The notes: generated from the letters alone by a model not told the origin. A stretch of 64,000 nucleotides of DNA from Elusimicrobiota bacterium (GCA_016207605.1 JACQPJ010000059.1:1238-65237); one strand, 5' to 3'; shown: positions 130 to 62,743, counted from the first letter of the stretch. Translations and numbers: made by a program.

Positions 130-837
130 ATGGCCTACTCGCGCCGCGAGGCCCCCAACTGCGACTGGTGCCCCTATCGTAGGAACTGCTTCTACGACCT
201 CCTGGGCACCAAGGAGGCCCGCAAGGCCTGGCGCGAGATGCGCCTGGCCAACTCCTTTCGCCGCGGCGAGGTCGTGCTCCAGGAAGGCGCCCTGCCCCAG
301 GGCGTCTACGTCGTCTGCACGGGCAAGGTCAAGGTGTACAAGTCGAGCCGCACGGGCCAGCAGCTGACCACCCGCATCGAGAGCCCCGGCGACCTGCTCG
401 GCCACGTGAGCTTGTTGGCCGCCGAGGGGCCCTATATGGCCACCTGCGAGACCCTCGAGCCCAGCGTCGTGTCGATGGTGGACGCGCGCACCTTCCGCGA
501 CTTCCTCGCCAAGTTCCCGCAGGCCTCCATGGCCCTCATCCGGGAGCTGGCGCGCGACGTGCGCCGGGGGGAGAACAAGGCCCGCGACATCGCCTTCAAG
601 TCCGCGCGCGGCCGCCTGGCCGACATCCTCCTGCGCATGATGCAGGGCGGCCGCCCCTGGCCCATCGTGGCCGGAATCCGGCGCCGCGACCTCGCCGAGC
701 TGGCGGGGCTCACCATCGAGACGACCGTGCGCCTGCTCAAGGAGTTCGAGGGCGACGGGATACTGCGCAAGCGCGGCAAGGACCTGCTCATCGTCGCCGC
801 CGAGCGCCTGCGCGCGGTCTCCGGAAACGCCGCCTAA
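130..837 (+). CDS. Crp/Fnr family transcriptional regulator with N-terminal Cys cluster
   Basis: cNMP-binding-like region (FRRGEVVLQEG...PGDLLG), C-terminal HTH (RRDLAELAGLTIETTVRLL), N-terminal C11-x2-C14-x5-C20. Confidence 0.92.
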   Translation: MAYSRREAPNCDWCPYRRNCFYDLLGTKEARKAWREMRLANSFRRGEVVLQEGALPQGVYVVCTGKVKVYKSSRTGQQLTTRIESPGDLLGHVSLLAAEGPYMATCETLEPSVVSMVDARTFRDFLAKFPQASMALIRELARDVRRGENKARDIAFKSARGRLADILLRMMQGGRPWPIVAGIRRRDLAELAGLTIETTVRLLKEFEGDGILRKRGKDLLIVAAERLRAVSGNAA

Positions 838-846
838 CGGCGGCCG

Positions 847-906
847 CTAGGCCGCGATCCTGCGGACGCGGCACAGATGCGTCGAGGAAAGGTTCATAGC
901 ATCTAG
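847..906. repeat. CTAG-bounded 56-bp double-hairpin repeat unit (copy A)
   Basis: CTAG at 847 and 903; near-identical reverse-complement copy at 24926-24985; related units at 15712-15884. Confidence 0.85.
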
Positions 907-1529
907 GTCCCGAAGAGGCGGTCCCCGGCGTCGCCCAGCCCCGGGACGATGAACCCGCGGCGGTCGAGCGCGGGATCGACGGCGGCGGTGTAAATGGGGA
1001 CGTCGGGATGCTCGCGGCGCACGCGCGCCACGCCCGGCCGGGCCGAGAGCAACGTCAGCAGGGAGACGCTGCGGGCTCCCGCCTCCTTGAGCACGCGCAG
1101 GGCCTCGCAGGCCGAGCCGCCGGTCGCCAGCATGGGATCGCAGAGCACGACGAAGCTCCGCGACAGGCGCGGGGGCAGGCGCAGGCAATAGCGCACGGGC
1201 CGGAGGGTCTCCTCGTCGCGATAGAGGCCGACGTGGCCGACCGCGGCCTCGGGCGCCAGCGCCAGCAGGCCGGGCAGCATGCCCAGGCCGGCCCGCAGGA
1301 CCGCGACGAAGACGAGCGGCTGGTCGAGCACGCGCGCAGGCGCGGATTGAAGCGGCGTGCGGACCTTTGCGGCGCGCGTGCGCGCGCCCCGCAGAATCTC
1401 CCCGCCGATGAGCGCCGCGACCTCCGCCGTCAGACGGCGGAAGCTCTCCGAGGACGTGGACTTGTCGCGCAGGCGCGCGAGCTTGTCCTGCACGAGGGGA
1501 TGAGCGCTGACGCGAAGACCGCCTTTCAT
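903..1529 (-). CDS. upp: uracil phosphoribosyltransferase
   Basis: MKGGLRVSAHPLVQDKLARLRD..., VLRAGLGM, PRPP motif LCDPMLATGGS, C-terminal VPGLGDAGDRLFGT; 208 aa from ATG at 1529. Confidence 0.97.
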   Translation of the reverse strand: MKGGLRVSAHPLVQDKLARLRDKSTSSESFRRLTAEVAALIGGEILRGARTRAAKVRTPLQSAPARVLDQPLVFVAVLRAGLGMLPGLLALAPEAAVGHVGLYRDEETLRPVRYCLRLPPRLSRSFVVLCDPMLATGGSACEALRVLKEAGARSVSLLTLLSARPGVARVRREHPDVPIYTAAVDPALDRRGFIVPGLGDAGDRLFGT

Positions 1530-2853: not shown

Positions 2854-3684
2854 TCAGAGCGCGCGCAGAAAATCGGAGAGAACGCCGCGCAAATTCCTTG
2901 AGACGCGTCCGCCTAACGCCAGGACCTCGGCATGGTCCTGCGTCGAGCCGGGCAGGCCTGCGGCCATGTTGGAGACCCACGCCAGGGCCGCGGCCCGCAC
3001 GCCCATCTGGCGCGCGGGGATCACCTCCGGCGCCACCGACATGCCTACGACGTCGGCGCCGAGGCGGCGCAGCGCGCGGATCTCGGCGGGCGTCTCGTAG
3101 GAGGGACCGCTCAACGCGGCATAGACGCCCTCGCGCGCCGGCGCACCCGCTCGGCGGCACGCGGCCAGCAGGGCCCGGCGCAGGGCCGGATCGTAGGCAT
3201 TCAATAGGCTCGGGAACATGGTCCCATATTTTTTTTGATGGAAACCCCGCAAGGGGTTGGCGCCCATCAAGTTGATGTGGTCCGAAACGACGACAAAATG
3301 TCCCGGCTTGGCCTCCTTTCGCAGCGAGCCGACCGCCGCCGTGACGATCAAGGTCTCTAGGCCGAGCGCGCGAAGCGCGCGCAGAGGCAGGGCGATGTCC
3401 TCCATCGCGTGGCCCTCGTAGTAATGGAAGCGGCCCTGAAGGACAGCGACGCCGCGGCCGACCGCTCGGCCCAGGATCAGCCGGCCCTCGTGGCCCGGCA
3501 CCGTGGGTCGGGGGAAACCGGGAATGCCGCGGTACGAGATCGCCGTCGTCTCGTCGAGAGAGGGGACCGCTCCGGCCAGGCCCGAGCCGAGAACGACGGC
3601 GACCTCCGGCCGGAACCCCGGCGCCTTTCTCCGGAGGGCGGCCGCCGCGGCGCGGACCCGCGCGGAATAATTCCCTTCGCTCAT
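2854..3684 (-). CDS. punA: purine-nucleoside phosphorylase (trimeric PNP type)
   Basis: VVLGSGL, QGRFHYYEG, GPSYETPAE, GADVVGMS, VSNMAAG. Confidence 0.95.
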   Translation of the reverse strand: MSEGNYSARVRAAAAALRRKAPGFRPEVAVVLGSGLAGAVPSLDETTAISYRGIPGFPRPTVPGHEGRLILGRAVGRGVAVLQGRFHYYEGHAMEDIALPLRALRALGLETLIVTAAVGSLRKEAKPGHFVVVSDHINLMGANPLRGFHQKKYGTMFPSLLNAYDPALRRALLAACRRAGAPAREGVYAALSGPSYETPAEIRALRRLGADVVGMSVAPEVIPARQMGVRAAALAWVSNMAAGLPGSTQDHAEVLALGGRVSRNLRGVLSDFLRAL

Positions 3685-3722
3685 CTGCCGAGAATTCTAC
3701 TTGTTTTTGGTAAAATGGGCCC

Positions 3723-4553
3723 ATGCCCACCGCGACCGCCGCCCCAACGGATCTTCGCGAGCTCATCCGCCGGATGAGGGTCGACATCATCCGCATGATC
3801 GAGGCGGCCGGCTCGGGGCATCCCGGCGGCTCCCTCTCCGTCATCGACCTGCTCGCCGTGCTCTACTGGAAGTTCCTCAAGCACGACCCGCGCCGTCCGA
3901 ATTGGCCGGAACGCGACCGCCTCATCCTCTCCAAGGGCCACGCCTGCCCCGCGCTCTACGCGGTCATGGCGCAGCGCGGCTACTTCCCCGCCGAGGAGCT
4001 GCCGAGCCTGCGCAAGCTGGACAGCCCGCTCCAGGGCCATCCCGACCGCCTGCGCCTGCCCGGCATCGAGTTCTCGTCGGGCTCGCTCGGCCAGGGCCTT
4101 TCCGTCGGCCTGGGCATGGCCCTGGCGGCCAAGCTGGACAAGGCCGCCTGGAAGACCTACGTCGTGCTCGGCGACGGCGAACTGCAGGAAGGCCAGGTCT
4201 GGGAGGCCTTCATGGCCGCGCCCAAGTTCAAGCTCGACAACCTGGTCGCGATCGTGGACCACAACAACGGCCAGATCGACGGCCCGGTCCAGCAGGTCAT
4301 GGACCTCGAGCCCCTGGCCGACAAACTGCGCGCCTTCAACTGGGACGTGCAGGCGATCGACGGCCACGACCTGGCCGCGGTGGAGAAGGCGCTCTCCGCG
4401 GCCTCGGCCGCCGGCGGCCGGCCGCGCGCGATCATCGCCAAGACCGTCAAGGGCAAGGGCGTCTCCTTCATGGAGCACAACATCGCCTGGCACGGCTCGG
4501 CGCCCAAGAAGGCCGACGCGGACAAGGCGGTCCAGGAGATCCTCGATGCCTAA
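3723..4553 (+). CDS. tkt: transketolase, N-terminal (TPP-binding) subunit
   Basis: GSGHPGGSLS, LSKGHACPALY, LQGHP, GSLGQGLS, GDGELQEG. Confidence 0.96.
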   Translation: MPTATAAPTDLRELIRRMRVDIIRMIEAAGSGHPGGSLSVIDLLAVLYWKFLKHDPRRPNWPERDRLILSKGHACPALYAVMAQRGYFPAEELPSLRKLDSPLQGHPDRLRLPGIEFSSGSLGQGLSVGLGMALAAKLDKAAWKTYVVLGDGELQEGQVWEAFMAAPKFKLDNLVAIVDHNNGQIDGPVQQVMDLEPLADKLRAFNWDVQAIDGHDLAAVEKALSAASAAGGRPRAIIAKTVKGKGVSFMEHNIAWHGSAPKKADADKAVQEILDA

Positions 4554-14560: not shown

Positions 14561-15016
14561 CTACTGGGCGACGGGCCTGGGCTGAGGCTGGGGCCGGGAC
14601 GCGGGCTTGAGCTTGGACTCCGCCTTCGGCGCGGGCTTGGCCTCGGGCTTGAGTTCCAGCTTGGGCTCGGGCGGCTTGGCGGCCTCGGACTCCGCGCGCT
14701 CGTCGAGCCGCGCGGAACGGCCCGTCAGGCCCCGCAGGTAATAGAGGCGGGCGCGCCGCGCGCGGCCGGCGCGCACGAGCTCCACCTTGTCGATGTGCGG
14801 CGAAGCCAAAGGAAACGTCCGCTCCACGCCCACGCCGAAGGAGACCTTGCGGACCGTGAAGGTCTCTCCCGGTCCGCGGCCGCGCCGCGAAATCACCACG
14901 CCCTCGAAGACCTGGACGCGCTCGCTGTCGCCTTCCCGGACCTTCATGTGCACCCGGACGGTGTCGCCGGGACGGAACATCGGCACGACCTGCTTGTCCT
15001 CCATTGCAACCATCAT
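14561..15016 (-). CDS. rplS: 50S ribosomal protein L19
   Basis: [10 protein letters not shown]...[11 protein letters not shown]...[17 protein letters not shown]...RRARLYYLR; AGGAG upstream; ATGA overlap with trmD. Confidence 0.97.
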
Positions 15017-15711
15017 GCGCTTTCTCCTGACGTCCTGGTTCGCCCCGCCGCTATAAGATCGGGACGCTTGCGCCGCGTCGAGGCCAGGGCGGCTTGGCGC
15101 CGCCAGGCCCGGATCTTGGCATGGTCCCCGGAAAACAGCACCTCGGGGGCCTTGCGGCCGCGCCAAACGCGCGGCCGCGTGTACTGCGGAAAATCGAGCA
15201 GGCCGGACGCGAACGACTCGTCGGCCGCGGCCTCGTCCTTCTTGAGCACGCCCGGAATCTTGCGGACCACGGCGTCGGCCACGACCAGGGCGGGCAGCTC
15301 CCCGCCGGTGAGGACGTAGTCGCCGATGGAGAGCTCCTCGTCGAACAAGCGCAGCGCGCGCTCGTCGACCCCCTCGTAGCGCCCGCAGACGAGCACCAGG
15401 CGCTCCCGCTGGGAGAGCCGGACCGCGGCGGCGTCGTCGAAGGTCACGCCCTGCGGCGATAGGAAGATCACCGCCGCGTCCTTGGTCCTCACGCGGCGCA
15501 CGGCGCGAGCCAGGGGCTCGGCCATGAGCACCATGCCGGCCCCACCGCCGAAGGGGCGGTCGTCGACGCGGCGGCGCTTGTCCGCGGAAAAATCGCGCGG
15601 GTTGACGCAGCCCCAGGACAGCAGCCCCTTGTCCCGGGCGCGGCCCAGGATGCCGGCGTCCATCACCGGGGGGAACAGCTCCGGGAACAGCGTGACGAAG
15701 TCGATGCGCAT
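15013..15711 (-). CDS. trmD: tRNA (guanine-N1)-methyltransferase
   Basis: [48 protein letters not shown]. Confidence 0.98.
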
Positions 15712-15884
15712 CTAGGCCTCGACCCGTTGGGCTCGGCACAGGTGTGCTGAGGAAAGGTTCATAACACCTAGGCCTCGACCCGTTGGGCTCGGCACAGGTG
15801 TGCTGAGGAAAGGTTCATAACACCTAGGCCTCGACCCTTCGGGCTCGGCACAGATGCGGCCGGGGAGAGCCTGGTCGCATCTAG
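15712..15884. repeat. three tandem CTAG-bounded double-hairpin units (56, 56, 57 bp)
   Basis: CTAG at 15712, 15768, 15824, 15881; units 1 and 2 identical, unit 3 has a variant second hairpin. Confidence 0.92.
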
Positions 15885-16108
15885 TCGATCTCCACGACCG
15901 CGTGCCGGCCGGCCTTCTGCGCCGCCACGCCCACCAGGGCGCGGATCGCCTTGATCACCTTGCCCTGGCGGCCGATGATCTTGCCCTTGTCCGCCTCGTC
16001 GACGATGAGCTTGAGGACGGAGGCGTCGCCGTCCCGGCTCTCCTCGACGCGCACCGCGTCGGGCCTGTCGGCCAGGCGGGAGACGACGTAGAGCGCGAGC
16101 TCCTTCAT
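15881..16108 (-). CDS. khpA: KH-domain RNA-binding protein
   Basis: MKELALYVVSRLADRPDAV...DKGKIIGRQGKVIKAIR; 75 aa between rpsP and trmD. Confidence 0.93.
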   Translation of the reverse strand: MKELALYVVSRLADRPDAVRVEESRDGDASVLKLIVDEADKGKIIGRQGKVIKAIRALVGVAAQKAGRHAVVEID

Positions 16109-23280: not shown

Positions 23281-24912
23281 GTGAAACGAATCCTCAACGC
23301 CCGCCGGGCCGCCGCGGCCGTCCTCGCCGCGGGATTCCTGTTGACGGCGGCGCGCCCGCGCGCCGCGACCTTCGGCCTGCCCCGCTTCCCGGCCATGACC
23401 CAGACCCTGGCGCTGGAGGCCCTCGCCGACTTCCTGCAAAGCTCAGACGCGGCGCCGACGCAGGCCGTCCTGAACGCATGCGCCTTCCTGGGCGATCTTG
23501 ACTCCGCCGATGTCCCGGCCGCCGGAAACGCCCTTGGGGCCGCGACGGCGATCTCCGCTTTTCGGACGGCCGCGGCCGCGATCCCTCGGCTGACGTCCCG
23601 AGCCGAAGCGCGGGCCAACCCGGCGGCGGCCGCCAAATCGGTCATCCTCCATCGCCTGCGGCGCGTCCTGCCGCTCGACGCCAGGGAGCGAGCCAAGCTC
23701 GCGGCCAACCTCCGGCTCGTCCCGCCAGCCGCGCGCGCCGAGCTGGCGGCGCCGTTTGGGACCGCCCAAGCCATGCGGCACGCGCGGCAAATCGCGGAGG
23801 CGCTCCCAATCGATAAGATCGACGCTCAGCCCGACACGGCCGCGGGACCGCGAACCGGCTGGCGGCCCGAGCAGACGCTCCGGAATATGTCCGCGATCCT
23901 GGAGGCATACCGGAACGACCCCGGACAACGCGCCTTCATTGCGCGCGGTCTCGAAGCTGCCGGCATCGAGCTCGATCCGAACCACGGCAGCTCCGGCGAG
24001 CAGCCTCGCACGCTGCGGTACGTGAGCCTCCGCGATCCGCGGCTGATCCAGCTCGTCAAGGACATGATCGAGGACGGGCTGCTGCGGGCGCTGCTCGACT
24101 CCTGGGGCATCGAGGAGAAGCTGCGGCTCATCCTGTTCGGCGGCGAAGTGACCCTGGACGTCTTCAGAGCCCGGGACCAAGGCGGACCCCTGGCCGCGAC
24201 GATCTGGAGGTACGCCAACGGTCAAGGCGAAGAATATCCTGTTCCGCTGCAGCCCAACGGCGAAAACGACGCCAGCATCGTGACGTCCATCCAGGAACAT
24301 TTCCTGCGCGAGCACGCGCTTGCGAAAATCAACGCTCTTCGCCCCGGGGTCGGCCGGCTGCTGGAAACCAGCTGGTTCGACCCGCTCGGCGACGACTATT
24401 ACGACGCCTACTTCATGCTCCTGGCCCTGGGCTACGACGTGGACGTGGCGGCCGCCGGCGAGGACTACATGCGCCGGGTAGACGACGCCCGCGCGGCGCG
24501 ATCGTTCCGCCGCGAGGTCCGGCGGGATCCCGGCTTCTTCGCGTCGCAGGCGCCCGCGGGCGACGCCGCGCTGGACGCGCTCGCCGAACAGGCAAGAAAA
24601 GCCTATCTCCAAATTGTGACCGCGCTGGGCGTGCTCGCCCGGCACCCGGACCGCCGCCTCGTGAGCCACAACGCGCGCTCGAGCCAGGACCACAGCCGGG
24701 GACCGGTCGGGGTGATCACCGAGGAAGAGTTCCAACGGCACTATGCGAGAAGAGGCTACCGGCTGGTCGTGGGAAAAGCCAAGCCCTCGGCGCTGCTCGA
24801 CGGCGTGCTGGTGCGGCCGGAGTTCCTAGACTTGCTCCGCTTCGTCCAAGGCGAGTTGGGCTACCGTTATGACGCGGCACAGGCGGCCTGGCTCCCCGCG
24901 GACGTCCCCTGA
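23281..24912 (+). CDS. secreted hypothetical protein (paralog 1)
   Basis: GTG start, signal peptide (RRAAAAVLAAGFLLTAA), 543 aa; C-terminal similarity to 25058-26734. Confidence 0.7.
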   Translation: MKRILNARRAAAAVLAAGFLLTAARPRAATFGLPRFPAMTQTLALEALADFLQSSDAAPTQAVLNACAFLGDLDSADVPAAGNALGAATAISAFRTAAAAIPRLTSRAEARANPAAAAKSVILHRLRRVLPLDARERAKLAANLRLVPPAARAELAAPFGTAQAMRHARQIAEALPIDKIDAQPDTAAGPRTGWRPEQTLRNMSAILEAYRNDPGQRAFIARGLEAAGIELDPNHGSSGEQPRTLRYVSLRDPRLIQLVKDMIEDGLLRALLDSWGIEEKLRLILFGGEVTLDVFRARDQGGPLAATIWRYANGQGEEYPVPLQPNGENDASIVTSIQEHFLREHALAKINALRPGVGRLLETSWFDPLGDDYYDAYFMLLALGYDVDVAAAGEDYMRRVDDARAARSFRREVRRDPGFFASQAPAGDAALDALAEQARKAYLQIVTALGVLARHPDRRLVSHNARSSQDHSRGPVGVITEEEFQRHYARRGYRLVVGKAKPSALLDGVLVRPEFLDLLRFVQGELGYRYDAAQAAWLPADVP

Positions 24913-24925
24913 CCGAACGGAGGTC

Positions 24926-24985
24926 CTAGATGCTATGAGCCTTTCCTCGGCGCATCTGTGCCGCGTCCGAAGGATCGCGGCCTAG
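24926..24985. repeat. CTAG-bounded 56-bp double-hairpin repeat unit (inverted copy)
   Basis: Reverse complement of 847-906 with 3 mismatches. Confidence 0.88.
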
Positions 24986-25057: not shown

Positions 25058-26734
25058 TTGACGAAGCATCGAGACGCGATAAGCCTTTCCTCAGCCCTGG
25101 CCGCCTGCCTCCTCCTTGCCGCGCCGGCGGCGCGGGCGGCCGTCCCGATGGAGGGAAGGGCGGAACAGCCTTCCATCGCGGACGCGCCGAGCCTGGAAAG
25201 CCCGACGCCCCCGGCGGAAGAGCTCTCGCCCCTGATCGCGCTGAACGTGCTGACCTTCGCCCTTCGCGGCGACCTCAATAATATGCCCGAACTCGCGCGG
25301 GCCACGGCGCGCCTGCGCGCGTTGGACGCGGACCAGATCGGAGCGTTGGCTCGGTATACGGGCCTCGTGGACGCTTACCGCAGCGCCGTCGAGGAGGTGC
25401 TGGAGAAATCCGACGCGGCGCAGGCCGCGACGCGCCTCGCGGCGGCGCCACACCTCGCGCCGGAAACCGCGCTCGCGTCGAGCCGCAAGCTCGCCCTGCT
25501 GAGTCACCTGCCCGCCGCCCTCGCCCTTTTGAGCCGAGAGACGCACCAAGACGGGCGGGTCCGAGCGTTTTGGAACGCGCTCCCCGAACCCGCCAAACAA
25601 CGGCTTGAGCGGGACCTGACTGCGCGCGGCATCCCCGCAGCGAACCGGTGGCGGGATGGCCTGACGGCGGACGCACTGAGAAAAATCGGAGAGGCCGCGC
25701 CGTGGGGCAAGGCAACCCCGGCGGGCAAGACCGCAAGCCCGGGGTCGGCGCGGCCGGTCAAGGCCGCGCCCATCCAGCCTGCGGGGTTGGGGGAACTGAT
25801 GGGGCTGGCGCGCAATTATGCTCAAGCCGACGAGCGGGAAGCGGGCCGCATCGAACAGCTCATCCAAGACGCCGGGGCCGCCGTCCGCTTGGACGGCGAC
25901 GCCCGCCACGACGATCTGGACGAAGCCCACGAGTCCCTGGTCCCCGACGGGTTGATCCATCTGACGATCTCTCGACCCGCCGCGATCGAGGACGTCAAGA
26001 CGAAGCTGCAGCAGGGCTCGCTTCTGCGTCTTCTGCGCCAGGGGGGCGTCTACCGGCTCACGCTGGATATCGGCGACGGCGCGCGCCTCACGCTCCTGCC
26101 CATGCGGGATGGCCGCGCCCGGCAGGACGTGTTTGGGATACGGCGGCTGGATCGGGACGGCGAAATGGAGTACCAGGACCTTGCGCAGGCCAGAGCCGCC
26201 GACGGCCCCTGGAAGATCGTCTCCCTGATTGACGAGCTGATCCAGCAGCGCCATGGCTCGGCCATGCTGGCGGGTCTGGGCTACAAGAATCTCTCCGCGC
26301 TCCTCGAGGCCTTCAGGAACGCCGGCCAGCTCGGGAACGCCGATTCGCACATTCGGGCCATGCTTCTCGCCAAGAACCTGATCGCGGACCTCTCGGCGCG
26401 CGAGACGAATTACCTGCGCCTTATGCGCTCGGGCGAGGCGGCCGACGCATTCAAGCGCGAGACGAGGAGCCGGCTTCTGTCCGCGTATTCCCGCCCGGAG
26501 GGAGAAGCCTCGACTGAGCAGGACGCCGCCTCCGCGATCCGCGCGATCTACCTCAAAATCCTGGGAGCCCTGGGCATCTTGAGCGAGATCGAGGGGTTCA
26601 TGCCGCGATCCTACGACGGCGCCTCCGTCGTGGACGGCTTAGCGGTGCCCGCCGCCTTCGCCTTCGCCGTTTGGCACGTCCAGCAGGAGCTGGGCTACTC
26701 CTACGGCCCGGCCGGCTGGCGCAGGCCGAAGTGA
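25058..26734 (+). CDS. secreted hypothetical protein (paralog 2)
   Basis: TTG start 8 nt after TAGAAT; signal peptide (ALAACLLLAAPAARA); shares YL.I..ALG.L and VQ.ELGY.Y motifs with paralog 1. Confidence 0.7.
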   Translation: MTKHRDAISLSSALAACLLLAAPAARAAVPMEGRAEQPSIADAPSLESPTPPAEELSPLIALNVLTFALRGDLNNMPELARATARLRALDADQIGALARYTGLVDAYRSAVEEVLEKSDAAQAATRLAAAPHLAPETALASSRKLALLSHLPAALALLSRETHQDGRVRAFWNALPEPAKQRLERDLTARGIPAANRWRDGLTADALRKIGEAAPWGKATPAGKTASPGSARPVKAAPIQPAGLGELMGLARNYAQADEREAGRIEQLIQDAGAAVRLDGDARHDDLDEAHESLVPDGLIHLTISRPAAIEDVKTKLQQGSLLRLLRQGGVYRLTLDIGDGARLTLLPMRDGRARQDVFGIRRLDRDGEMEYQDLAQARAADGPWKIVSLIDELIQQRHGSAMLAGLGYKNLSALLEAFRNAGQLGNADSHIRAMLLAKNLIADLSARETNYLRLMRSGEAADAFKRETRSRLLSAYSRPEGEASTEQDAASAIRAIYLKILGALGILSEIEGFMPRSYDGASVVDGLAVPAAFAFAVWHVQQELGYSYGPAGWRRPK

Positions 26735-26774: not shown

Positions 26775-28373
26775 ATGGCGGATAAGGACGCCGTCAAGGA
26801 CGTTAAGACGCCGCGGCCCGCGGCCGCGAGCGTGCAGAGGCTGCGCAAGGCCGTGGAGAAGGCCCGGGGCGGGGGCGGCGCGGCCCGGGTCGAGGCGCAG
26901 AAGGCGCGGGGCAAGTTCACGGCGCGCGAGCGCGTCCAATACCTGCTCGACGAGGGCAGCTTCCAGGAGCTCGACCTGCTCGTGTCCACGCGGGCGACGG
27001 CCTTCGGCCTGCAGGACCGGGAGATCCCCGGCGACGGCGTCGTCGCGGGCTTCGGCCAAGTCAACGGGCGGGAGGTCTGCGTGTACGCGCAGGACTTCAC
27101 CGTGCTGGGGGGCTCGCTGGGCCTGGCCCACGCGCAGAAGATCTGCAAGGTCATGGACCTGGCGCGCGACAACCGCGTGCCCGTGATCGGCCTGCTCGAC
27201 TCGGGCGGGGCGCGCATCCAGGAGGGCGTGGACAGCCTGGACGGGTACGCGGAGATATTCCTGAGAAACGTCCAGGCTTCGGGCGTGATCCCGCAGATCT
27301 CGGTGATCCTGGGGCCCTGCGCGGGGGGAGCGGTCTATTCGCCGGCGCTCACCGACTTCGTCTTCATGGTCGAGGGCATCAGCCACATGTTCGTGACCGG
27401 ACCGGACGTGGTCAAGGCCGCCACCGGCGAGGAGGTGAGCTTCGACGCGCTCGGCGGCTGCGAGGCGCACTCCGCCAAGTCGGGGGTGTGCCACTTCGTG
27501 GCCAAGTCCGAGCCCGACTGCTTCCGCCAGGTGCGCGAGCTGCTGAGCTACCTGCCGCAGAGCCGCGAGGAGAAGCCCCCGCGCGTGGCCAACCCGGACC
27601 CGGTGCGCCGCGCCGTGCCCCTGCTCGAGAAAATGTGCGACCTGGACCCGCGCAAGCCCTACCGCGTCCACCACGTGATCTGGCAGATCGCCGACGAGCA
27701 CAAGTTCTTCGAGGTGCAGGCCCCCTACGCCAAGAACCTCGTGACCGGCTTCTGCCGCCTGGGCGGCGAGACCGTGGGCATCGTGGCCAACAACCCGGCG
27801 CACCTGGCCGGGGCGCTCGACATCAACGCCTCGGACAAGGCCGCGCGCTTCATTCGCTTCCTCAACGCCTTCAACATCCCCATCCTCACCCTCGCGGACG
27901 TGCCCGGCTACTGGCCCGGGGTCCAGCAGGAGCACGGCGGCATCATCCGCCACGGCGCCAAAATCCTCCACGCCTACGCCGAGGCCACGGTGCCCAAGAT
28001 CACCGTGGTCCTGCGCAAGGCCTACGGCGGCGCCTACATCGCGATGAGCTCCAAGCACATGCGCGGCGACTTCAACTTCGCCCTGCCCTGCGCCGAGATC
28101 GCGGTCATGGGCCCCGCCGGCGCCGTGGAGATCCTCTACTCGCGCGACCTGGCCGCGTGCCGAAGCGAAGCCGAGCGGGCCGCGCTCAAGACCAGGCTCA
28201 CCGCCGAGTACGCGGCCAAGTTCGCCTCGCCCTACCAGACCGCGTCGGCGGGCTCCCTGGACGAGGTGATCGAGCCGGCCCAGCTGCGCCACAAGGTCAT
28301 CCGCGCCCTGCGTTTCCTCAAGGACAAGCGGACCCCCGGAACGCACGAGAACCGCGGCAACATCCCGCTGTGA
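26775..28373 (+). CDS. pccB: acyl-CoA carboxylase carboxyltransferase (beta) subunit
   Basis: GKFTARER, PGDGVV, QDFTVLGGS, DSGGARIQEG, GPCAGGAVYSPA, LRKAYGGA; TATAAT and GGAGG upstream. Confidence 0.93.
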   Translation: MADKDAVKDVKTPRPAAASVQRLRKAVEKARGGGGAARVEAQKARGKFTARERVQYLLDEGSFQELDLLVSTRATAFGLQDREIPGDGVVAGFGQVNGREVCVYAQDFTVLGGSLGLAHAQKICKVMDLARDNRVPVIGLLDSGGARIQEGVDSLDGYAEIFLRNVQASGVIPQISVILGPCAGGAVYSPALTDFVFMVEGISHMFVTGPDVVKAATGEEVSFDALGGCEAHSAKSGVCHFVAKSEPDCFRQVRELLSYLPQSREEKPPRVANPDPVRRAVPLLEKMCDLDPRKPYRVHHVIWQIADEHKFFEVQAPYAKNLVTGFCRLGGETVGIVANNPAHLAGALDINASDKAARFIRFLNAFNIPILTLADVPGYWPGVQQEHGGIIRHGAKILHAYAEATVPKITVVLRKAYGGAYIAMSSKHMRGDFNFALPCAEIAVMGPAGAVEILYSRDLAACRSEAERAALKTRLTAEYAAKFASPYQTASAGSLDEVIEPAQLRHKVIRALRFLKDKRTPGTHENRGNIPL

Positions 28374-38667: not shown

Positions 38668-40431
38668 ATGAAACGACGATCGCTCCTCCCTGTTGTCGTC
38701 CTAAGCCTATCCTTGGGAGTTGGCGGCGCGGCGGCCGAGACCGTCAAACACCCCGACACCTACACCTACCTAACCATCTCCGACGCCGACAGCCTGGACC
38801 CGGCCTGGTCCTACGACGTGGGCAGTCATCTCGTCGTCCTCAACATCTACGAGCCCCTGTTCCAGTTCGACGGCTCCTCGACCGAACGCCTGCTCCCGCT
38901 CAGCGCGGCCAAGGTCCCCTCGCGCGCCAACGGCCTGATCTCCGCCGACGGGCTCGTCTACACCATCCCCATCCGCCAGGGCGTCAAGTTCCACGACGGC
39001 GCGCCCATGACCGCCGAGGACGCGCGCTATTCCATCCTCCGCTTCATGCTCCAGGATCGGGCCGCCGGCCCCTCGTCTTTGCTCCTGGAGCCCCTGCTTG
39101 GCTATGCGGGCACGCGCGGACCGGATGGCAAGACTCTCCCCAACGTCTGGGAGGACGCCAATCGCGCCGTGACGATCTCGGGCGACAACTTGGTCCTGCG
39201 CCTGCCCAAGCCCTACGCGCCGCTGGTGGGCATACTCGCCTCCTGGGCGCCCGTCCTGTCCAAGGACTGGGCAACCAAGAACGGCGACTGGGACGGAACC
39301 GAGGCGACGTGGGCCAAATACAACAACCCGCAAAAATCCGCCTCGCCCTTCTTCGAGCGCGCCAACGGCACCGGCCCCTTCAAGCTGGAGCGCTGGGACC
39401 GCAAGACCAAGGAGTTCATCCTGACGCGCAACGACGGCTACTGGCGCGCGCCCGCCCAGCTCAAGACCGTGGTGATCAAGGCCGTCGACGAGTTCGGCAC
39501 GCGCAAGCTCATGCTTCAGGCCGGCGACGCCGACAACATCCGCGCCGATTTGCCCATGCTGTCCCAGCTTCAGAACCTGCCGGGCGTGCAGATCGTCGAC
39601 AACCTACCCACGATGAACATGGACCCGACCGTGTTCTTCACCTACAAGATCACCGCGGCGGGAAACTCCTTCCTCGGCTCCGGCCGCTTGGACGGAAGCG
39701 GCATTCCGCCGGACTTCTTCTCCGACGCGGACGTGCGCAAGGGCTTCGCCTACGCCATGGACTACCAGGGCTTCATCGCCGACGTCCAGCGCGGCAAGAG
39801 CACCCAGGCCACGGGCGCCATCCCCAAAAGCCTGCCCGGCCACAACCCCAAGGGACGCCAATACCGCCTGGACTTGGCCAAAGCGAAAGAACACTTCCGG
39901 AAAGCCTGGGGAGGCAAGGTCTGGGAGCAAGGCTTCAAGTTCACGATCGCCTACAACACGGGGAATATCCCGCGTCAGACCCTTTGTCAAATCCTCAAGG
40001 GCAACGTGGAGCGCCTCAACCCCAAGTTCCGGATCGACGTGCGCGCCGTGGACTGGCCGACCTTCCTGGACGCCTACAAGGCCTCCAAACTGCCCATCTT
40101 CGTGATGGGCTGGAACGCGGATTTCCCGGATCCGCACACCTTCGCCTTTCCCATGCTGCACTCACAGGGTGACTACCCGGCCACGCAAAAATTCGGCCGG
40201 CCGGACTTCGACCAGCTCATCGAGCAGGCCAAGTTCGAGTTGGATCCGGCCAAGCGCAAGGCCCTGTACTACAAGCTTCAGGACCTGGCTTTCGATGAGT
40301 GTCCCCAGCTCTACATCAACGACGACGTGCGCTATCGGGCCCAGCGCAGTTGGGTGAAAGGCTGGACCCCCAATCCGGTCTTTCCGGACCCTCCGTGGGG
40401 CAGCTACTACTACCCCATCTCCAAGCGATAG
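38668..40431 (+). CDS. oppA: peptide ABC transporter substrate-binding protein (family 5), paralog 3
   Basis: SLDPAWSYD, VKFHDG, NGTGPFKL, WNADFPD; own TAGAAT box 6 nt before ATG. Confidence 0.92.
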   Translation: MKRRSLLPVVVLSLSLGVGGAAAETVKHPDTYTYLTISDADSLDPAWSYDVGSHLVVLNIYEPLFQFDGSSTERLLPLSAAKVPSRANGLISADGLVYTIPIRQGVKFHDGAPMTAEDARYSILRFMLQDRAAGPSSLLLEPLLGYAGTRGPDGKTLPNVWEDANRAVTISGDNLVLRLPKPYAPLVGILASWAPVLSKDWATKNGDWDGTEATWAKYNNPQKSASPFFERANGTGPFKLERWDRKTKEFILTRNDGYWRAPAQLKTVVIKAVDEFGTRKLMLQAGDADNIRADLPMLSQLQNLPGVQIVDNLPTMNMDPTVFFTYKITAAGNSFLGSGRLDGSGIPPDFFSDADVRKGFAYAMDYQGFIADVQRGKSTQATGAIPKSLPGHNPKGRQYRLDLAKAKEHFRKAWGGKVWEQGFKFTIAYNTGNIPRQTLCQILKGNVERLNPKFRIDVRAVDWPTFLDAYKASKLPIFVMGWNADFPDPHTFAFPMLHSQGDYPATQKFGRPDFDQLIEQAKFELDPAKRKALYYKLQDLAFDECPQLYINDDVRYRAQRSWVKGWTPNPVFPDPPWGSYYYPISKR

Positions 40432-40432
40432 C

Positions 40433-41461
40433 GTGCTGAAATACGTCCTCAAGCGCCTGGCCTTCCTGCCGCTGGTGATGGCGGGGGTCACGCTCCTGCT
40501 GTTCGCCTGCCTGCAGTTCCTCTCGCCGGAGATGCGCGCCTCGCTCTACGTCCGGGACCCGCGCCAGCTCAACCAGATGGAGGCGATCATCGAGAAGTAC
40601 GGCCTGCGCAAGCCCATGCCCGTGCAGTACGGGCGCTGGCTCAAGCAGGTGGCGCGCGGCGACCTGGGCTACTCGGAGACGGCCAAGATGCCCGTGTCCG
40701 AGGCCATCGGCGCCTTCTTCCCCGCGACCTTCGAGCTGACGCTCGTGACCTTCTTCCCGATCCTGGCCGTGGGCGTGGCGCTGGGCGTGCTCTCGGCCGT
40801 GTACAAGGACCGCTTCCTGGACCACGCCTCGCGCTTCATCGCGGTCACGGGCTACTCCCTGCCCAGCTTCGTGCTCGGCCTGGCCCTGCTCATGGTCTTC
40901 TACGGCCGCCTGCACTGGTTCCCGCCGGGGCGCTACGGCCTGGAGACCGACCTTCTCGTGCACGGCGCAGGCTTCCGGCATTGGACCGGCCTGCTCACCC
41001 TGGACTGCCTGCTCAACGGGCGCTGGTCCGCTTTCGCGGACGTCGTCAAGCACTTGGTCCTGCCGGCCTGCACTCTGCTCTACATCTCGGTCGCCCTGCT
41101 CCTGCGCATCACCCGCTCCTCGATGCTCGAGGAGCTCTCCAAGGACTACGTGCGCACGGCCCGCGCCAAGGGCCTGCCCGAGCGCGCCGTCATCTTGAAG
41201 CACGCCCTGCGCAACGCCCTCATCCCCCTGGTCACGCTCTCCAGCCGGCTCTCCATCGGCCTGCTCGGCGGCGACGTCATCACCGAGACCATCTTCGACT
41301 TCCCCGGCATCGGCCGCTGGGGCGTGCAGGCCGCCCAGCAGCTCGACATCCCCGGCGTGCTGGGCTCGACTTTGCTCGCCGCCGGCCTCTTCGTGCTGGC
41401 GAACCTGGTCGCCGACCTGCTCTACGCGGTCGTGGACCCGCGCATCCGCGTGGGGAGCTGA
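40433..41461 (+). CDS. oppB: oligopeptide ABC transporter permease
   Basis: YVLKRL, GDLGYS, PATFEL, EELSKDYVRTARAKGL, HALRNA. Confidence 0.95.
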   Translation: MLKYVLKRLAFLPLVMAGVTLLLFACLQFLSPEMRASLYVRDPRQLNQMEAIIEKYGLRKPMPVQYGRWLKQVARGDLGYSETAKMPVSEAIGAFFPATFELTLVTFFPILAVGVALGVLSAVYKDRFLDHASRFIAVTGYSLPSFVLGLALLMVFYGRLHWFPPGRYGLETDLLVHGAGFRHWTGLLTLDCLLNGRWSAFADVVKHLVLPACTLLYISVALLLRITRSSMLEELSKDYVRTARAKGLPERAVILKHALRNALIPLVTLSSRLSIGLLGGDVITETIFDFPGIGRWGVQAAQQLDIPGVLGSTLLAAGLFVLANLVADLLYAVVDPRIRVGS

Positions 41462-52246: not shown

Positions 52247-52304
52247 TGAAAAATTCCGCTGATTTTTGGCAAAATTTTACTGGCGCCGGCGCCGGTCTTT
52301 TTCT

Positions 52305-53780
52305 ATGCGCCTGACGGCGGAGGCGGTCGCCGCCCTGCGCCGTTTATCGGCTCTGCGCCCGGAGCCCGTCTGGCTCGTCGGCGGCGCCATCCGCGACGCC
52401 GCCCTCGACCGCCCCGTGGCCGACTTGGACGTCGCCTCCCGCGGCGCCAAAGCCTTGGCTCAAGCCGCGGCGCGCGCTTTCGGCGGAAGCTTCGTGATCC
52501 TCGACGCGGAGAATAAGGTCTACCGCGTCGCCCTGAGGCCGCGGCCGCGAAGCGCGCTGCGCCAAATTGACGTCGCGGAGATCCAAGGCAAGGACATCGC
52601 CGAGGACCTGGCCCGCCGCGACTTCACGGTCAATGCCGTTGCTCTTTGGCTTCCCATCGCCTCGACCGCGATCCCGCCCGCGGCATTTCTCGATCCGCGC
52701 CGGGGACTGGCGGATTTGAAACGCCGCGTGCTACGCTGCGAATCCGGACGTTTATTCACGGACGACCCGCTGCGCCTCCTGCGCGCCTTCCGCGTCGCGG
52801 CTCAGTGCGGCCTGACGATCGAGCCCAAGACGCTCGCCCTGATCCGCAAGCACTGCGGCCTGGCGCGCAAGCCCGCGGCCGAGCGCGTCCAGGCCGAGCT
52901 CATGGCCCTGCTCGCCGTCCCCGGCGCTCCCGCCTGGCTCAAGCTGATGGATGACGCCGGCCTGCTGACCGCGCTCCTGCCCGAGCTCGAGCCCGCGCGC
53001 GCCTGCGCCGAGGAGTACTACGGCGTCGGCGGCGTGCTCAAGCACTCCCTGACGGTCTGCGCCCGCCTGGACTTCCTGCTCGAAAACCTGCGCGCGGTCT
53101 ACCCCGACCTGGCCCGCTCCATGGCCGCCGCCCCGCGCGCGCCCCTCATGCTCGCCGCGCTCCTCCACGATATGTCCAAGCCCGAGACCGCGCGCCGCGA
53201 CGGCGACCGCCTGCGCTTCTTCGGCCACGACGAGCGCGGCGCCCAGCGCGCGGAAAAGATTCTGCGCGAGCTCCGCTTTTCCCGGGAGCACGTCCGGCTC
53301 GTCGCGGCGATCATACGCCACCACCTTCGCCCCGGCCACCTGGCCGGGGGGGAGACCATCACCGAGAAGGCCGCCTACCGCTTCTTTCGCGACCTCGGCG
53401 CCGACGCGCCCGGCCTGCTCGCGGTCGCCTGGGCCGACCATGCCTCCTACCTCCCCGCGCCGCGCCTCAAGCGCCTGCTCCCGCAGGCCTGCGCCCGCAA
53501 GCCCGGCCCCTTGGCGCGCATCCGCCCGGCCGAGGCGCGCAAGACCGTCCGCCACCTGCGCCTGGTCTCCTGGCTCCTGCGCCGCTTTTTCAAACACGAC
53601 CAGGCGCCCGTCCCGGTCCGCCTCCTCGATGGCCGCGACGTCATGAAGGCCCTGAAAATCTCGCCCGGCCCCCGCGTCGGCGAAATCCTGGAGCTTCTAC
53701 GCGAGGCCCAGGCTGAGGGCCGCGTTCAAGACCGCGCTCAAGCGCTGGCCTTCGTTTCCCGCCTAGGCCTCGACCCATAA
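52305..53780 (+). CDS. class II tRNA nucleotidyltransferase with HD domain
   Basis: VGGAIRD..L...DLDV, DLARRDFTVNA, DDPLRLLRAFR, LLHDMSKP, GPRVGEIL; ORF extends to 52266. Confidence 0.92.
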   Translation: MRLTAEAVAALRRLSALRPEPVWLVGGAIRDAALDRPVADLDVASRGAKALAQAAARAFGGSFVILDAENKVYRVALRPRPRSALRQIDVAEIQGKDIAEDLARRDFTVNAVALWLPIASTAIPPAAFLDPRRGLADLKRRVLRCESGRLFTDDPLRLLRAFRVAAQCGLTIEPKTLALIRKHCGLARKPAAERVQAELMALLAVPGAPAWLKLMDDAGLLTALLPELEPARACAEEYYGVGGVLKHSLTVCARLDFLLENLRAVYPDLARSMAAAPRAPLMLAALLHDMSKPETARRDGDRLRFFGHDERGAQRAEKILRELRFSREHVRLVAAIIRHHLRPGHLAGGETITEKAAYRFFRDLGADAPGLLAVAWADHASYLPAPRLKRLLPQACARKPGPLARIRPAEARKTVRHLRLVSWLLRRFFKHDQAPVPVRLLDGRDVMKALKISPGPRVGEILELLREAQAEGRVQDRAQALAFVSRLGLDP

Positions 53781-53787
53781 CATCTAG
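53763..53787. repeat. internally deleted CTAG-repeat unit
   Basis: CTAGGCCTCGACCC (start of the 15712 unit) joined to ATAACATCTAG (end of a unit). Confidence 0.75.
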
Positions 53788-60749: not shown

Positions 60750-60765
60750 TATTGCGTGTAATAGA

Positions 60766-62196: not shown

Positions 62197-62241
62197 TGCC
62201 TTTCGCGCGACCTATCAGTATAATACTGATAGTAGTACAAT

Positions 62242-62586
62242 ATGTCAATCGGGAAATCATCCGACGTCGGCCTGCGTTACGACCGCCTGCGCCGTTCCTT
62301 GGCGCGGATCGGCTTTGTCTGCAAGGGCAGCATGATCAAGCGCCATATGCCCTGTGGCCGCTCGGGATGCAGATGCGTGGCGGGCCCCAGCCATTGGCAT
62401 GGCCCCTACTTCCAGTGGACTTGGAAGGTTAAGGGCAAGACCGTTTCGGTCCGGCTTACGGCGCAGCAGGCCAAGCTGATGAGCGGCTATGTTCTCAACG
62501 ATCGCCGGCTTCGCCGCGTCGTGGACGAAATGCGGGACCTTTCACTCAAGGTCGTTCAGGAAAAGCTCAAGGCTACCGTTTTGTAG
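62242..62586 (+). CDS. small Cys/His-rich IS-associated protein (DUF6788-like)
   Basis: GSMIKRHMPCGRSGCRC...HGPYFQWT...GKTVSV; inside the IS ends, divergent from tnpC. Confidence 0.75.
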   Translation: MSIGKSSDVGLRYDRLRRSLARIGFVCKGSMIKRHMPCGRSGCRCVAGPSHWHGPYFQWTWKVKGKTVSVRLTAQQAKLMSGYVLNDRRLRRVVDEMRDLSLKVVQEKLKATVL

Positions 62587-62743
62587 CTCAAGGCAGACCC
62601 CCTCGCCCCTGGCCGCGGAGTTCGCCCCAGCTTCAATCCGCTGATCTATTACCATTGCGTTCTACGGATGGGTCCTTCGACCTAGACGGGCCTAGGACTT
62701 TAGGCCCTGGCCTATGCGGCCCCCTGGCGGTACACTCTTGGGG

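What the first reader, a model, noticed from the sequence alone, without database searches (positions are those of the whole stretch)
15712..15884. Undescribed-looking 56-bp CTAG-bounded double-hairpin repeat family with covarying stems
Seen: units at 847-906, 15712-15884 (three in tandem sharing CTAG joints), 24926-24985 (inverted) and a deleted form at 53763-53787. Each has two hairpins. The second stem shows compensatory changes (AGATGC..GCATCT versus AGGTGT..ACACCT) at fixed unit length. There are no terminal inverted repeats beyond CTAG. Established: REP/REPIN and IS200/IS605-type non-autonomous elements are hairpin-defined and are moved by HUH enzymes; IS110 elements use a short core without TIRs. 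Inference: a structure-selected mobile or regulatory element targeting CTAG, mobilised in trans.
Basis: partly seen in the sequence, partly recalled or inferred. Interest (0 to 1): 0.7.

Follow-up and report, generated by a model that had tools for sequence, protein, structure and literature searches.

The report
Stop-codon-docking hairpin repeat family
A 56-base DNA repeat that folds into two hairpins has spread to more than 100 places in a small groundwater Elusimicrobia genome, usually landing on the rare word CTAG at a gene's end and rebuilding the stop codon; it is a new family of the known REP/BIME kind of selfish repeat, and the enzyme that moves it was not found.

Summary
The 60-nt unit (56-nt period, CTAG shared at joints) has about 112 copies at 89 loci in this 1.44-Mb Elusimicrobiota MAG. 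It occurs in 22 of 24 same-genus genomes (1-19 copies each) and in none of 16 genomes of other genera.

Both hairpins are kept by compensatory changes. In an independent set of 44 copies from relatives, 10 of 15 base pairs show double changes.

Orthologous sites are occupied in one species and empty in another. The KhpA/TrmD junction reads GACTAGATGCGC in two relatives and carries exactly 3 x 56 nt here.

The element is strongly oriented:
- In 47 of 89 arrays, the CTAG next to hairpin 2 is the TAG stop codon of the upstream gene.
- Between co-directional genes the orientation split is 41:11.
- All 23 tandem joints are head-to-tail.

Its closest analogues are tagged REP/BIME repeats moved by RAYT enzymes, which cut at CT. 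Membership is not shown, for three reasons: the tag is CTAG rather than GTAG, this assembly has no Y1 gene, and none of 43 Y1 genes in relatives has a unit nearby. IS110 and IS630 do not fit.

Verdict: a new variant of a known kind, of moderate interest.

The parts
15712..15771 (+). CTAG; hairpin 1 at 15716-15737 (variant with tandem mismatch); ACAG; hairpin 2 at 15740-15769 (GTGT/ACAC stem); CTAG. On the minus (gene-sense) strand it ends ...TCGAGGCCTAG directly before the trmD ATG at 15711.
15768..15827 (+). Unit 2, identical to unit 1. It shares CTAG 15768-15771 with unit 1.
15824..15884 (+). Unit 3, the 61-nt length class, with an ATGC/GCAT stem and a different hairpin-2 apex. Its last CTAG (15881-15884) contains the TAG stop of khpA on the minus strand. 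It is probably the oldest unit, because relative G007 has one 61-nt unit at the same junction.
   Evidence: (L106)
847..906 (+). Single unit between convergent genes. CTAG 903-906 holds the TAG stop of the uracil phosphoribosyltransferase gene (903-1529, minus strand). The Crp-like gene (130-837, plus strand) ends 9 nt from the other end.
24926..24985 (-). Single unit, inverted relative to the others, so its gene-sense strand is the plus strand. It lies 13 nt after the TGA stop of gene 23281-24912 and 72 nt before gene 25058-26734. It is co-oriented with both genes but does not sit on the stop.
   Evidence: (I1)
53763..53787 (+). Internally deleted form, CTAG-GCCTCGACCC|ATAACAT-CTAG: the 5' arm of hairpin 1 joined to the 3' end of hairpin 2. 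The CCA-adding-enzyme ORF (52266-53780) runs into it and stops at a TAA inside it.
   Evidence: a similar 24-nt form lies next to G000 C40:10218
15881..16108 (-). khpA (KH-domain protein), upstream gene of the array. Its stop codon lies inside the repeat's CTAG.
15013..15711 (-). trmD, downstream gene. Its ATG abuts the last CTAG of the array. In relatives L001 and L002 the khpA stop and trmD start are directly adjacent (GACTAGATGCGC), which is the empty site.
40425..40434 (.). Empty orthologous site in this genome (..GCGATAGCGTGCTGAAA..). Relative G015 (L130) has one unit inserted here.
28369..28372 (.). Empty orthologous site in this genome (..CCGCTGTGATCATC.., overlapping stop and start). 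Relative G009 (L134) has one unit here.

Best explanation
The 56-nt unit (called R1 here) is a non-autonomous, structure-defined mobile repeat of the REP/BIME kind. It has two unlike hairpins. Each carries an xTAG tag at its outer foot, on opposite strands, so a unit reads CTAG-H1-ACAG-H2-CTAG.

Shown:
- It is gained and lost at orthologous sites.
- Where the empty site has the same flanks as the occupied one (the KhpA/TrmD junction), it holds a single CTAG. Most other empty sites, in more diverged genomes, have a different stop (TAG without the C, or TGA).
- Insertion leaves CTAG on both sides, so a gene whose C-TAG stop was hit keeps a TAG stop.
- New units join existing ones only head-to-tail at the regenerated CTAG, and neighbouring units are usually different family members.
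- The element points the same way as the gene it follows.

Inferred:
- It moves as folded single-stranded DNA, through a hairpin-recognising HUH/Y1 (RAYT- or IS200/IS605-like) enzyme supplied in trans that cuts at CT.
- The oriented insertion reflects which strand is exposed, or which orientation is tolerated, behind a translated gene.
- Covariation reflects selection on source copies for the fold the enzyme needs. Resident copies then decay neutrally, except for the TAG that now serves as a stop codon.
- Secondary co-option is likely. The gene-sense 3' end ...TCGAGGCCTAG gives a GAGG Shine-Dalgarno 5 nt before an abutting start codon.
For: Copy number and range:
- 112 hits at 89 loci in 1.44 Mb.
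- 22 of 24 same-genus genomes carry it and 0 of 16 from other genera. A collection-wide pattern scan found only Elusimicrobiota MAGs.

Mobility:
- The khpA/trmD site is empty in L001 and L002 (GACTAGATGCGC). It holds 168 nt here and 61 nt in G007.
- At least eight sites are filled in a relative and empty here. About four are filled in both.

CTAG:
- The genome has 595 CTAG against 4167 expected. Of these, 152 lie in or at units.

Orientation:
- 47 arrays hold a stop in the CTAG at the hairpin-2 end, against 12 at the hairpin-1 end.
- In co-directional contexts the split is 41:11, p = 3.6e-5.
- In relatives the split is 29 against 2.
- 23 of 23 tandem joints are head-to-tail, and only 2 of 17 adjacent pairs are identical.

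Structure:
- Covariation is shown.
- G.T and A.C mismatches are equally rare, so there is no RNA-type wobble signature.

Likeness to REP biochemistry (PMC8266576): a tetranucleotide ending AG directly 5' of a GC-rich stem, a bulged stem, a 3-nt loop, and cleavage at CT. GTAG REPs are known to donate TAG stops and to form head-to-tail dimers (PMC3733652). Y1_Tnp genes are present in 24 of 25 relatives.

Co-option: the GAGG variant is enriched where a start lies within 15 nt (10 of 14 against 12 of 35, p = 0.027, a post hoc test).
Against: - There is no Y1_Tnp gene in this assembly, which is 75% complete. This is the genome with by far the most copies.
- None of the 43 Y1 genes of same-genus genomes has a unit within 1.5 kb. 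They carry their own short inverted repeats instead.
- Y1 presence does not track copy number: G003 has a Y1 gene and 0 units.
- The two hairpins are unlike each other. IS200/IS605 ends and REPIN arms are alike.
- The tag is CTAG, whereas E. coli TnpA-REP tolerates no change in GTAG.
- Orientation follows the neighbouring genes rather than the local majority strand. That does not fit a simple lagging-strand-template model.
- The exact breakpoints cannot be fixed. The end next to hairpin 1 is variable in older copies.
- No within-population insertion polymorphism could be read from the available assemblies.
Confidence: 0.6

Rival explanations
1. R1 is moved by an enzyme that is not a Y1/RAYT: an unrecognised stop-codon-docking insertion system. 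It would recognise two different hairpins on one strand, need no inverted repeats, and act in the direction of transcription.
For: Every named candidate failed its association test. Orientation follows local gene direction rather than the majority strand. The sharp CTAG end and the variable other end point to an asymmetric, one-directional reaction. Truncated units keep the gene-sense 5' part. Earlier notes of this scan describe CTAG-docking hairpin repeats without a known enzyme in other phyla; these are leads only.
Against: The argument rests on absence in incomplete MAGs. REP-like features (xTAG tag at the stem foot, bulge, triloop, CT at junctions) are explained more simply by a RAYT-type enzyme. 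No candidate gene was identified.
Confidence: 0.2
2. R1 is mainly a host-useful transcript element. It would act as an intercistronic or 3' RNA hairpin module that protects the upstream mRNA and passes ribosomes on through a built-in chain of stop and start codons. Its spread and conservation would be driven by that function, with copying by recombination or gene conversion.
For: - It is co-oriented with the upstream gene and starts inside the stop codon.
- 45 of 66 units carry a complete stop-to-start relay ending at the terminal TAG.
- The window array is an unbroken chain from the khpA stop to the trmD ATG.
- 10 of 11 tight-junction arrays have a complete relay, against 22 of 36 others (p = 0.078).
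- In relatives the far end varies among TAG, TGA and TAA, all in-frame stops, next to the downstream ATG.
- GAGG is enriched before close starts.
Against: - No wobble asymmetry marks a functional RNA strand.
- RNA stability is about equal on both strands.
- The internal ATG is present in only about 77% of 60-nt units, and the ACG-type 61-nt units have no start.
- The peptides change with the compensatory stem changes.
- The relay and GAGG statistics are weak and post hoc.
- Presence and absence at orthologous junctions shows the genes work without it.
- There is no U-tract for termination, no Rfam match, and no RNA data.
Confidence: 0.12
3. R1 is a MITE of a DDE transposase that targets CTAG and duplicates TA or CTAG (IS630/Tc1-mariner or the IS5 group).
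For: - The units are bounded by CTAG, which is compatible with TA or CTAG duplication.
- The genome holds one IS630-family copy (C20:86331-87424). That copy inserted with TA duplication into the CTAG of an R1 unit, so such enzymes are active on these sites.
Against: - There are no terminal inverted repeats. The two ends (GGCCKCGAYCC and the reverse complement of ..CTCATAGCATC) are unrelated.
- The IS630 ends (TACTGATATACGTATAAGTAATAGG) do not occur in R1.
- DDE_3 is found in only 3 of 15 same-genus relatives searched (one of those below the family cut-off), and is absent from the repeat-rich ones searched (G001, G005, G007).
- A palindromic target with a DDE enzyme predicts both orientations and inverted neighbours, but the joints are 23:0 head-to-tail.
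Confidence: 0.06
4. R1 is mobilised by, or is a by-product of, an IS110-family (bridge-RNA) recombinase.
Against: DEDD_Tnp_IS110 is absent from this genome and from 9 of 15 same-genus genomes searched, including repeat-rich ones. No non-autonomous IS110 derivatives are known (own knowledge).
Confidence: 0.02

Closest known systems
REP/BIME elements and their RAYT (TnpA-REP) Y1 transposases ('REPtrons'), including the GTAG-tagged REP super-family (PMC3733652; PMC8266576; REPINs PMC3116915)
   Same: - Short GC-rich imperfect palindromes in high copy between genes.
- A conserved tetranucleotide ending in AG directly 5' of the stem, a bulged stem and a 3-nt loop.
- CT at the inferred junctions.
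- Mosaic clusters and head-to-tail dimers.
- Termini that supply TAG stop codons.
- Genus-level families with large copy-number differences.
   Different: - The tag is CTAG rather than GTAG, and it is present at both ends of a fixed two-hairpin unit.
- The two hairpins are unrelated in sequence, so this is not a REPIN.
- Units share the tag in strict head-to-tail arrays.
- There is a strong orientation bias relative to the upstream gene.
- No RAYT is flanked by the units, and none is found in the richest genome.
IS200/IS605 family and its miniature derivatives (PATEs)
   Same: - No inverted repeats and no classical duplication.
- A hairpin near each end.
- Insertion 3' of a specific tetranucleotide.
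- Oriented insertion.
- A single-strand mechanism would explain stems kept at the DNA level.
   Different: - The left and right hairpins of IS200/IS605 resemble each other and sit some distance from the cleavage sites. Here the hairpins differ and the tag overlaps the stem.
- The target equals the element's own 3' end.
- Orientation follows genes rather than the apparent replication strand.
- No full-length parent element was found.
MIRUs (mycobacterial interspersed repetitive units; own knowledge, Supply et al. 1997)
   Same: - Tandem units of 46-101 bp inside operons, co-oriented with the flanking genes.
- Small frames whose stop and start codons overlap those of the neighbouring genes.
   Different: MIRUs are not defined by covarying hairpins or by a CTAG tag, and they are unrelated in sequence. 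The resemblance is functional only.
CTAG/TA-targeting MITEs of IS630 and IS5-group transposons; Correia elements of Neisseria
   Same: Small size, intergenic location, insertion at TA/CTAG, and effects on neighbouring gene expression.
   Different: Those elements have terminal inverted repeats matching a parent IS and insert in both orientations. R1 has neither property.

Membership tests
REP/BIME-RAYT (REPtron) | Short (20-40 nt) GC-rich imperfect palindrome, high copy number, extragenic | tested here: met
   Hairpin 1 is 22 nt: a 9-bp stem with a bulged A and a 3-nt loop. There are 112 copies, and 85 of 89 arrays lie between called genes.
REP/BIME-RAYT (REPtron) | Conserved GTAG tetranucleotide at the 5' foot of the palindrome | tested here: not met
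   The tag is CTAG. Position 1 is C in 60 of 69 units, T in 7 and G in only 2. The last two positions, AG, are conserved. A GTAG-ended subfamily exists in relatives, 6 of 45.
REP/BIME-RAYT (REPtron) | A RAYT (Y1_Tnp) gene in the genome, flanked by the same repeats | tested here: not met
   There is no PF01797 match in G000 (the assembly is 75% complete). No unit lies within about 1.5 kb of 43 Y1 genes in same-genus genomes. These genes have other short inverted repeats.
REP/BIME-RAYT (REPtron) | Cleavage by the enzyme at a CT dinucleotide beside the hairpin on single-stranded DNA | not testable with these tools
   The sequence is compatible with this: CT lies at both junctions, and older copies end CT-AG, CT-GA or CT-AA. 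No biochemistry was possible.
REPIN | Two inverted copies of the same REP forming one long hairpin | tested here: not met
   Hairpin 1 and hairpin 2 are unrelated in sequence. The consensus fold is two separate hairpins.
IS200/IS605 miniature elements (PATE) | Similar subterminal hairpins at both ends, matching the ends of a full-length TnpA-encoding IS in the same or related genomes | tested here: not met
   The hairpins differ. No Y1 gene is bracketed by hairpin 1 and hairpin 2.
IS200/IS605 miniature elements (PATE) | No inverted repeats, no duplication, insertion 3' of a fixed tetranucleotide in one orientation | tested here: inconclusive
   There are no inverted repeats. CTAG precedes the gene-sense 5' end in 92 of 97 copies, and orientation is biased. 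A palindromic target that is repeated at the other end cannot be told apart from a 2-4-nt duplication.
MITE of an IS630/Tc1 or IS5-group DDE transposon | Terminal inverted repeats that match a parent insertion sequence | tested here: not met
   The unit has no inverted ends. The only IS630 copy in the genome has unrelated ends and is itself inserted into a unit's CTAG.
IS110-family element or derivative | A DEDD transposase in the genomes that carry the element | tested here: not met
   PF01548 is absent from G000 and from 9 of 15 same-genus genomes searched.
Any Rfam RNA family | A match to a curated covariance model | tested here: not met
   There are no hits at gathering score in the window. 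Only chance-level hits appear at E up to 10 on the array.

The most novel reading that the evidence does not exclude
R1 may belong to an undescribed class of 'stop-codon-docking' single-strand elements that do not depend on RAYT. An unknown enzyme would paste a two-hairpin cassette after the CT of a C-T-R-R stop codon, on the sense strand of a transcribed gene. The cassette would have evolved to be translationally transparent:
- Its first two bases rebuild a TAG stop.
- Its body is a chain of abutting or overlapping mini-frames (TAG|ATG-CTA-TGA overlapping ATG...GCC-TAG, or one 19-codon frame in the 61-nt class).
- Its end provides GAGG plus a stop directly before the next gene's start.

On this reading it can colonise tightly coupled operon junctions without uncoupling them.
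Probability: 0.15. Interest if true: 0.75.

Novelty: new variant of a known kind. Interest (0 to 1): 0.45.

Why it matters
- It gives a clean, well-populated example, with empty sites and rich covariation, of a hairpin-defined repeat that lands exactly on stop codons and keeps them working. It does so in a poorly known, uncultured phylum.
- The defining association with a RAYT gene fails here. The family is therefore a useful test of whether all REP-like repeats are RAYT-driven.
- The strict head-to-tail arrays and the co-orientation with genes constrain any proposed mechanism.
- In practice, these units break short-read assemblies: six contig ends of this MAG lie in them. They also create or alter stop codons, start codons and ribosome-binding sites, which matters for annotating Elusimicrobia genomes.
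- If the stop/start relay works, it would be a natural "insulating spacer" for operon engineering.

Tried and rejected
- **Rfam**, at gathering and permissive thresholds: nothing.
- **RAYT association:** no Y1 gene in G000. No unit lies near 43 Y1 genes in relatives. The inverted repeats that flank those genes are absent from G000.
- **IS110:** its distribution does not fit.
- **IS630/DDE_3:** the single copy in G000 is a user of the CTAG site, not a parent element.
- **An 8-nt duplication (CTAG plus the next 4 nt):** the 4 nt after the last CTAG do not match the unit's own 4 nt more often than in shuffles.
- **Choosing the RNA strand:** G.U versus A.C counts and folding energies show no asymmetry.
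- **Pseudoknot between the hairpin-1 arm and the hairpin-2 loop:** no covariation by inspection of column counts.
- **Replication-strand explanation of orientation:** orientations are mixed within contigs and follow adjacent genes.
- **Population-level empty alleles:** Logan contigs break at the repeat and no RNA runs exist. An exact empty-site word found nothing in JGI metagenome contigs.
- **An inverted pair in G022:C120** looked like a repeat-flanked cassette but is a perfectly palindromic contig, that is, an assembly artefact.
- **A multicopy upstream flank in G021/G022/G005** is non-coding, so it is a larger composite repeat rather than a gene.

Full report
**What is there**

The sequence at 15712-15884 is three head-to-tail units of 60, 60 and 61 nt that share their terminal CTAG, giving a 56-nt period. 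Further units lie at 847-906 and, inverted, at 24926-24985. A 25-nt internally deleted form lies at 53763-53787.

- CTAG;
- hairpin 1: GCC(G/T)CG-A-(T/C)CC, loop T(T/G)C, then G(A/G)(C)..CGGC;
- ACAG;
- hairpin 2: a 6-bp outer stem AG(A/G)(T/C)G(C/T)..(G/A)C(A/G)(T/C)CT around an inner stem, with the conserved loop GAGGAA;
- AG.

The outer stem of hairpin 2 includes the CT of the terminal CTAG.

**Scale and range**

The window is C45:1238-65237 of a 1.44-Mb, 60-contig, 68.6% G+C assembly that is 75% complete. TrmD relatives place it among groundwater Elusimicrobiota MAGs.

- Iterated nhmmer finds 112 hits. They form 89 arrays: 70 singles, 16 doublets, 2 triplets and 1 quadruplet. Six contig ends lie inside units.
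- A covariance model built from 92 distinct units finds 104 copies here. It finds 1-19 copies in 22 of 24 same-genus genomes of 2.5-4 Mb, and none in 16 genomes of 12 other genera of the order.
- A pattern scan of 185,579 species genomes returned 17 loci, all in Elusimicrobiota MAGs.
- Rfam has no match.

**Structure**

Within the genome, helix 2 is 98% paired and 4 of its 6 pairs change on both sides. In helix 1, pair 12:20 alternates C:G (53) and U:A (35).

In 44 units from other genomes, which were not used for the model:
- 95.4% of cells pair.
- 10 of 15 pairs show double changes: 9:22 C:G to G:C, 13:20, 30:57 G:C to A:T, 29:58, 32:55, 34:53.
- No shuffle out of 500 reaches the observed values, and slid controls fall to 18-41% paired.

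G.T and A.C mismatches are equally rare, and RNA folding energies are about equal on the two strands. The stems therefore look constrained as DNA hairpins, or on both strands, rather than as one RNA.

**Gene context**

I used a simple codon-bias gene caller (1380 genes, 91% coding).

- In 47 of 89 arrays, the CTAG next to hairpin 2 contains the TAG stop of a gene on the opposite strand. The other CTAG does this in 12 arrays.
- Between co-directional genes the element is gene-sense 41 times and anti-sense 11 times (p = 3.6e-5).
- In copies from relatives, 29 of 49 end a convincing ORF at that tag, against 2 at the other end.
- Orientation follows the adjacent genes even where they oppose the local majority strand (7:2).
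- Nine arrays have the downstream start codon directly after the far CTAG.

In the window, the array sits inside the bS16-KhpA-TrmD-bL19 operon. The khpA stop lies in its first CTAG and the trmD ATG directly after its last.

**Mobility**

- Relatives L001 and L002 read ..GAGATCGACTAGATGCGCATCGAC.. at the khpA/trmD junction. This genome has the same flanks with exactly 168 nt between two CTAGs. Relative G007 has one 61-nt unit there.
- I blasted the flanks of 49 units from relatives against this genome. At least eight sites are filled in a relative and empty here, including window 40425 and 28369. About four are filled in both.
- All 23 tandem joints are head-to-tail and none is inverted. Only 2 of 17 adjacent full units are identical. 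Arrays therefore grow mostly by addition of different family members at the regenerated CTAG, not by local duplication.

**CTAG and the two ends**

- CTAG is strongly depleted: 595 against 4167 expected. Of these, 152 are in or at units, 76 are other stop codons, 200 are inside genes and 167 are other intergenic. The stop-codon preference is thus partly a matter of where a tolerated CTAG exists. The orientation bias is not explained that way.
- The gene-sense 5' tag is CTAG in 92 of 97 copies here and in 36 of 45 in relatives. The exceptions, CTAA and CTGG, are compensated in the stem.
- The 3' tag is variable in older copies: CTAG 12, CTGA 6, GTAG 6, CTAA 5 of 45 in relatives.
- Downstream of the last CTAG, ATG or ACG follows in 22 of 48 arrays, against 6 of 80 unoccupied C-TAG stops. 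These are start codons, truncated older units or a target preference. It is not an 8-nt duplication.
- Truncated units can donate a start codon (G000 C15:30225).

**Search for the enzyme**

- **Y1_Tnp (PF01797):** absent from this assembly. It is present in 24 of 25 relatives, at 1-7 genes of about 250-290 aa. None of 43 same-genus Y1 genes has a unit within about 1.5 kb. They carry other short inverted repeats, for example GTAGGCCTGACACC, which are absent from G000.
- **IS110 (PF01548):** absent here and from most repeat-bearing relatives.
- **DDE_3 (IS630):** one copy, at G000 C20:86331-87424. It has 26-nt inverted ends and a TA duplication, and is inserted into the CTAG of unit C20:87423-87481. 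It uses the site but is not a parent of R1, and the family is missing from most relatives.

The mobilising enzyme is therefore not identified.

**Comparison with what is known**

Di Nocera et al. (PMC3733652) describe GTAG-tagged REPs that form head-to-tail, head-head and tail-tail dimers and often provide the TAG stop of flanking ORFs. They also describe RAYT genes flanked by long inverted repeats rather than by REPs.

Corneloup et al. (PMC8266576) show four things about TnpA-REP:
- It acts on single-stranded REPs.
- It needs the tetranucleotide at the 5' foot, especially its last two bases, AG.
- It needs a stem bulge in E. coli, or a 3-nt loop in S. maltophilia.
- It cuts at a CT dinucleotide.

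R1 hairpin 1 (CTAG, bulged 9-bp stem, triloop) and the CT at both junctions match this grammar. Hairpin 2 is a second, unrelated tagged hairpin on the other strand, as in a BIME.

The defining features tested for membership are not met: an exact GTAG tag, and a RAYT gene flanked by the repeats. I therefore file R1 as working like a REP/BIME but not as a proven member.

**Function, speculative**

In gene-sense orientation most units carry a relay of stop and start codons:
- 60-nt units read TAG|ATG-CTA-TGA, overlapping ATG-AGC...GCC-TAG.
- 61-nt units read TAG|ATG...(19 codons)...TAG.
- 45 of 66 units are complete.

The window array is an unbroken chain from the khpA stop to the trmD ATG. Complete relays are found in 10 of 11 arrays with a tight downstream start, against 22 of 36 others (p = 0.078). 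The GAGG-bearing variant of the 3' end is enriched before close starts (p = 0.027, post hoc). These trends fit an element selected to be harmless in coupled operons, but they do not prove it.

**Limits**

- Gene calls are my own crude ones.
- All genomes are MAGs, and mobile genes are often missing from MAGs.
- Relatives are 70-90% identical, so insertion ages and exact breakpoints are uncertain.
- No RNA or read-level data were usable.

Noticed in passing
G000 C20:86331-87424 (outside the window; locus L205 covers it): An IS630-family element of about 1.1 kb. It has 26-nt inverted ends (TACTGATATACGTATAAGTAATAGG...), a poly-A/T run between the HTH and DDE parts, and a TA duplication. It is inserted exactly into the CTAG of an R1 unit, so the repeat's tag also serves as a landing site for a classical CTAG-targeting transposon.
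   Followed up: partly
window 60758-62652: An IS66-family insertion sequence. It has 50-nt inverted ends (96% complementary) around a 476-aa DDE_Tnp_IS66/zf-IS66 transposase (60766-62196, minus strand), with a DUF6788 ORF at 62242-62586.
   Followed up: partly
L095, L096, L147-L186 (upstream of Y1_Tnp genes in relatives); 11 sites in G000, e.g. C12:4372, C20:13621, C46:8828: A conserved promoter-like motif, GGAACTTTTT-N11-13-(G)CGTATA(C). It precedes the Y1 genes of the genus and also occurs before unrelated genes in this genome. It may be a lineage-specific promoter consensus.
   Followed up: no
L096, L158, L162, L167, L183 and others (relatives): The Y1 (HUH) genes of the genus encode about 250-290 aa with a DnaA-C-like tail. 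They sit at syntenic positions and are bracketed by short inverted repeats such as GTAGGCCTGACACC, resembling the 'TIRYT' class of RAYT relatives. The first 7-8 bases (TAGGCCT) resemble the R1 hairpin-1 head, and this may or may not be meaningful.
   Followed up: partly
L085, L102, L105 (G021), L090 (G022), L120 (G005): In some relatives the R1 unit is the 3' part of a larger non-coding composite repeat. A further 35-110 nt of shared upstream sequence (...GCTGGCCGGTGGATTTCCCCAAGA) points to BIME-like mosaics with other repeat modules.
   Followed up: partly
G000 C15:30225-30264: A truncated unit (CTAGATGCTATGAACCT...) whose internal ATG appears to serve as the start codon of the downstream gene. 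The relative G007 has a full unit followed by the gene's own ATG AAC.
   Followed up: partly
L101 (G022:C120): This contig is a perfect 1378-nt palindrome (1500-2877 against 2878-4255). It is an assembly artefact that mimics a cassette flanked by inverted repeats.
   Followed up: yes
whole genome G000: This assembly is much smaller (1.44 Mb at 75% completeness) than same-genus genomes (2.5-4 Mb), yet it has 5-100 times more R1 copies. That may be a case of repeat expansion in a reduced genome.
   Followed up: no
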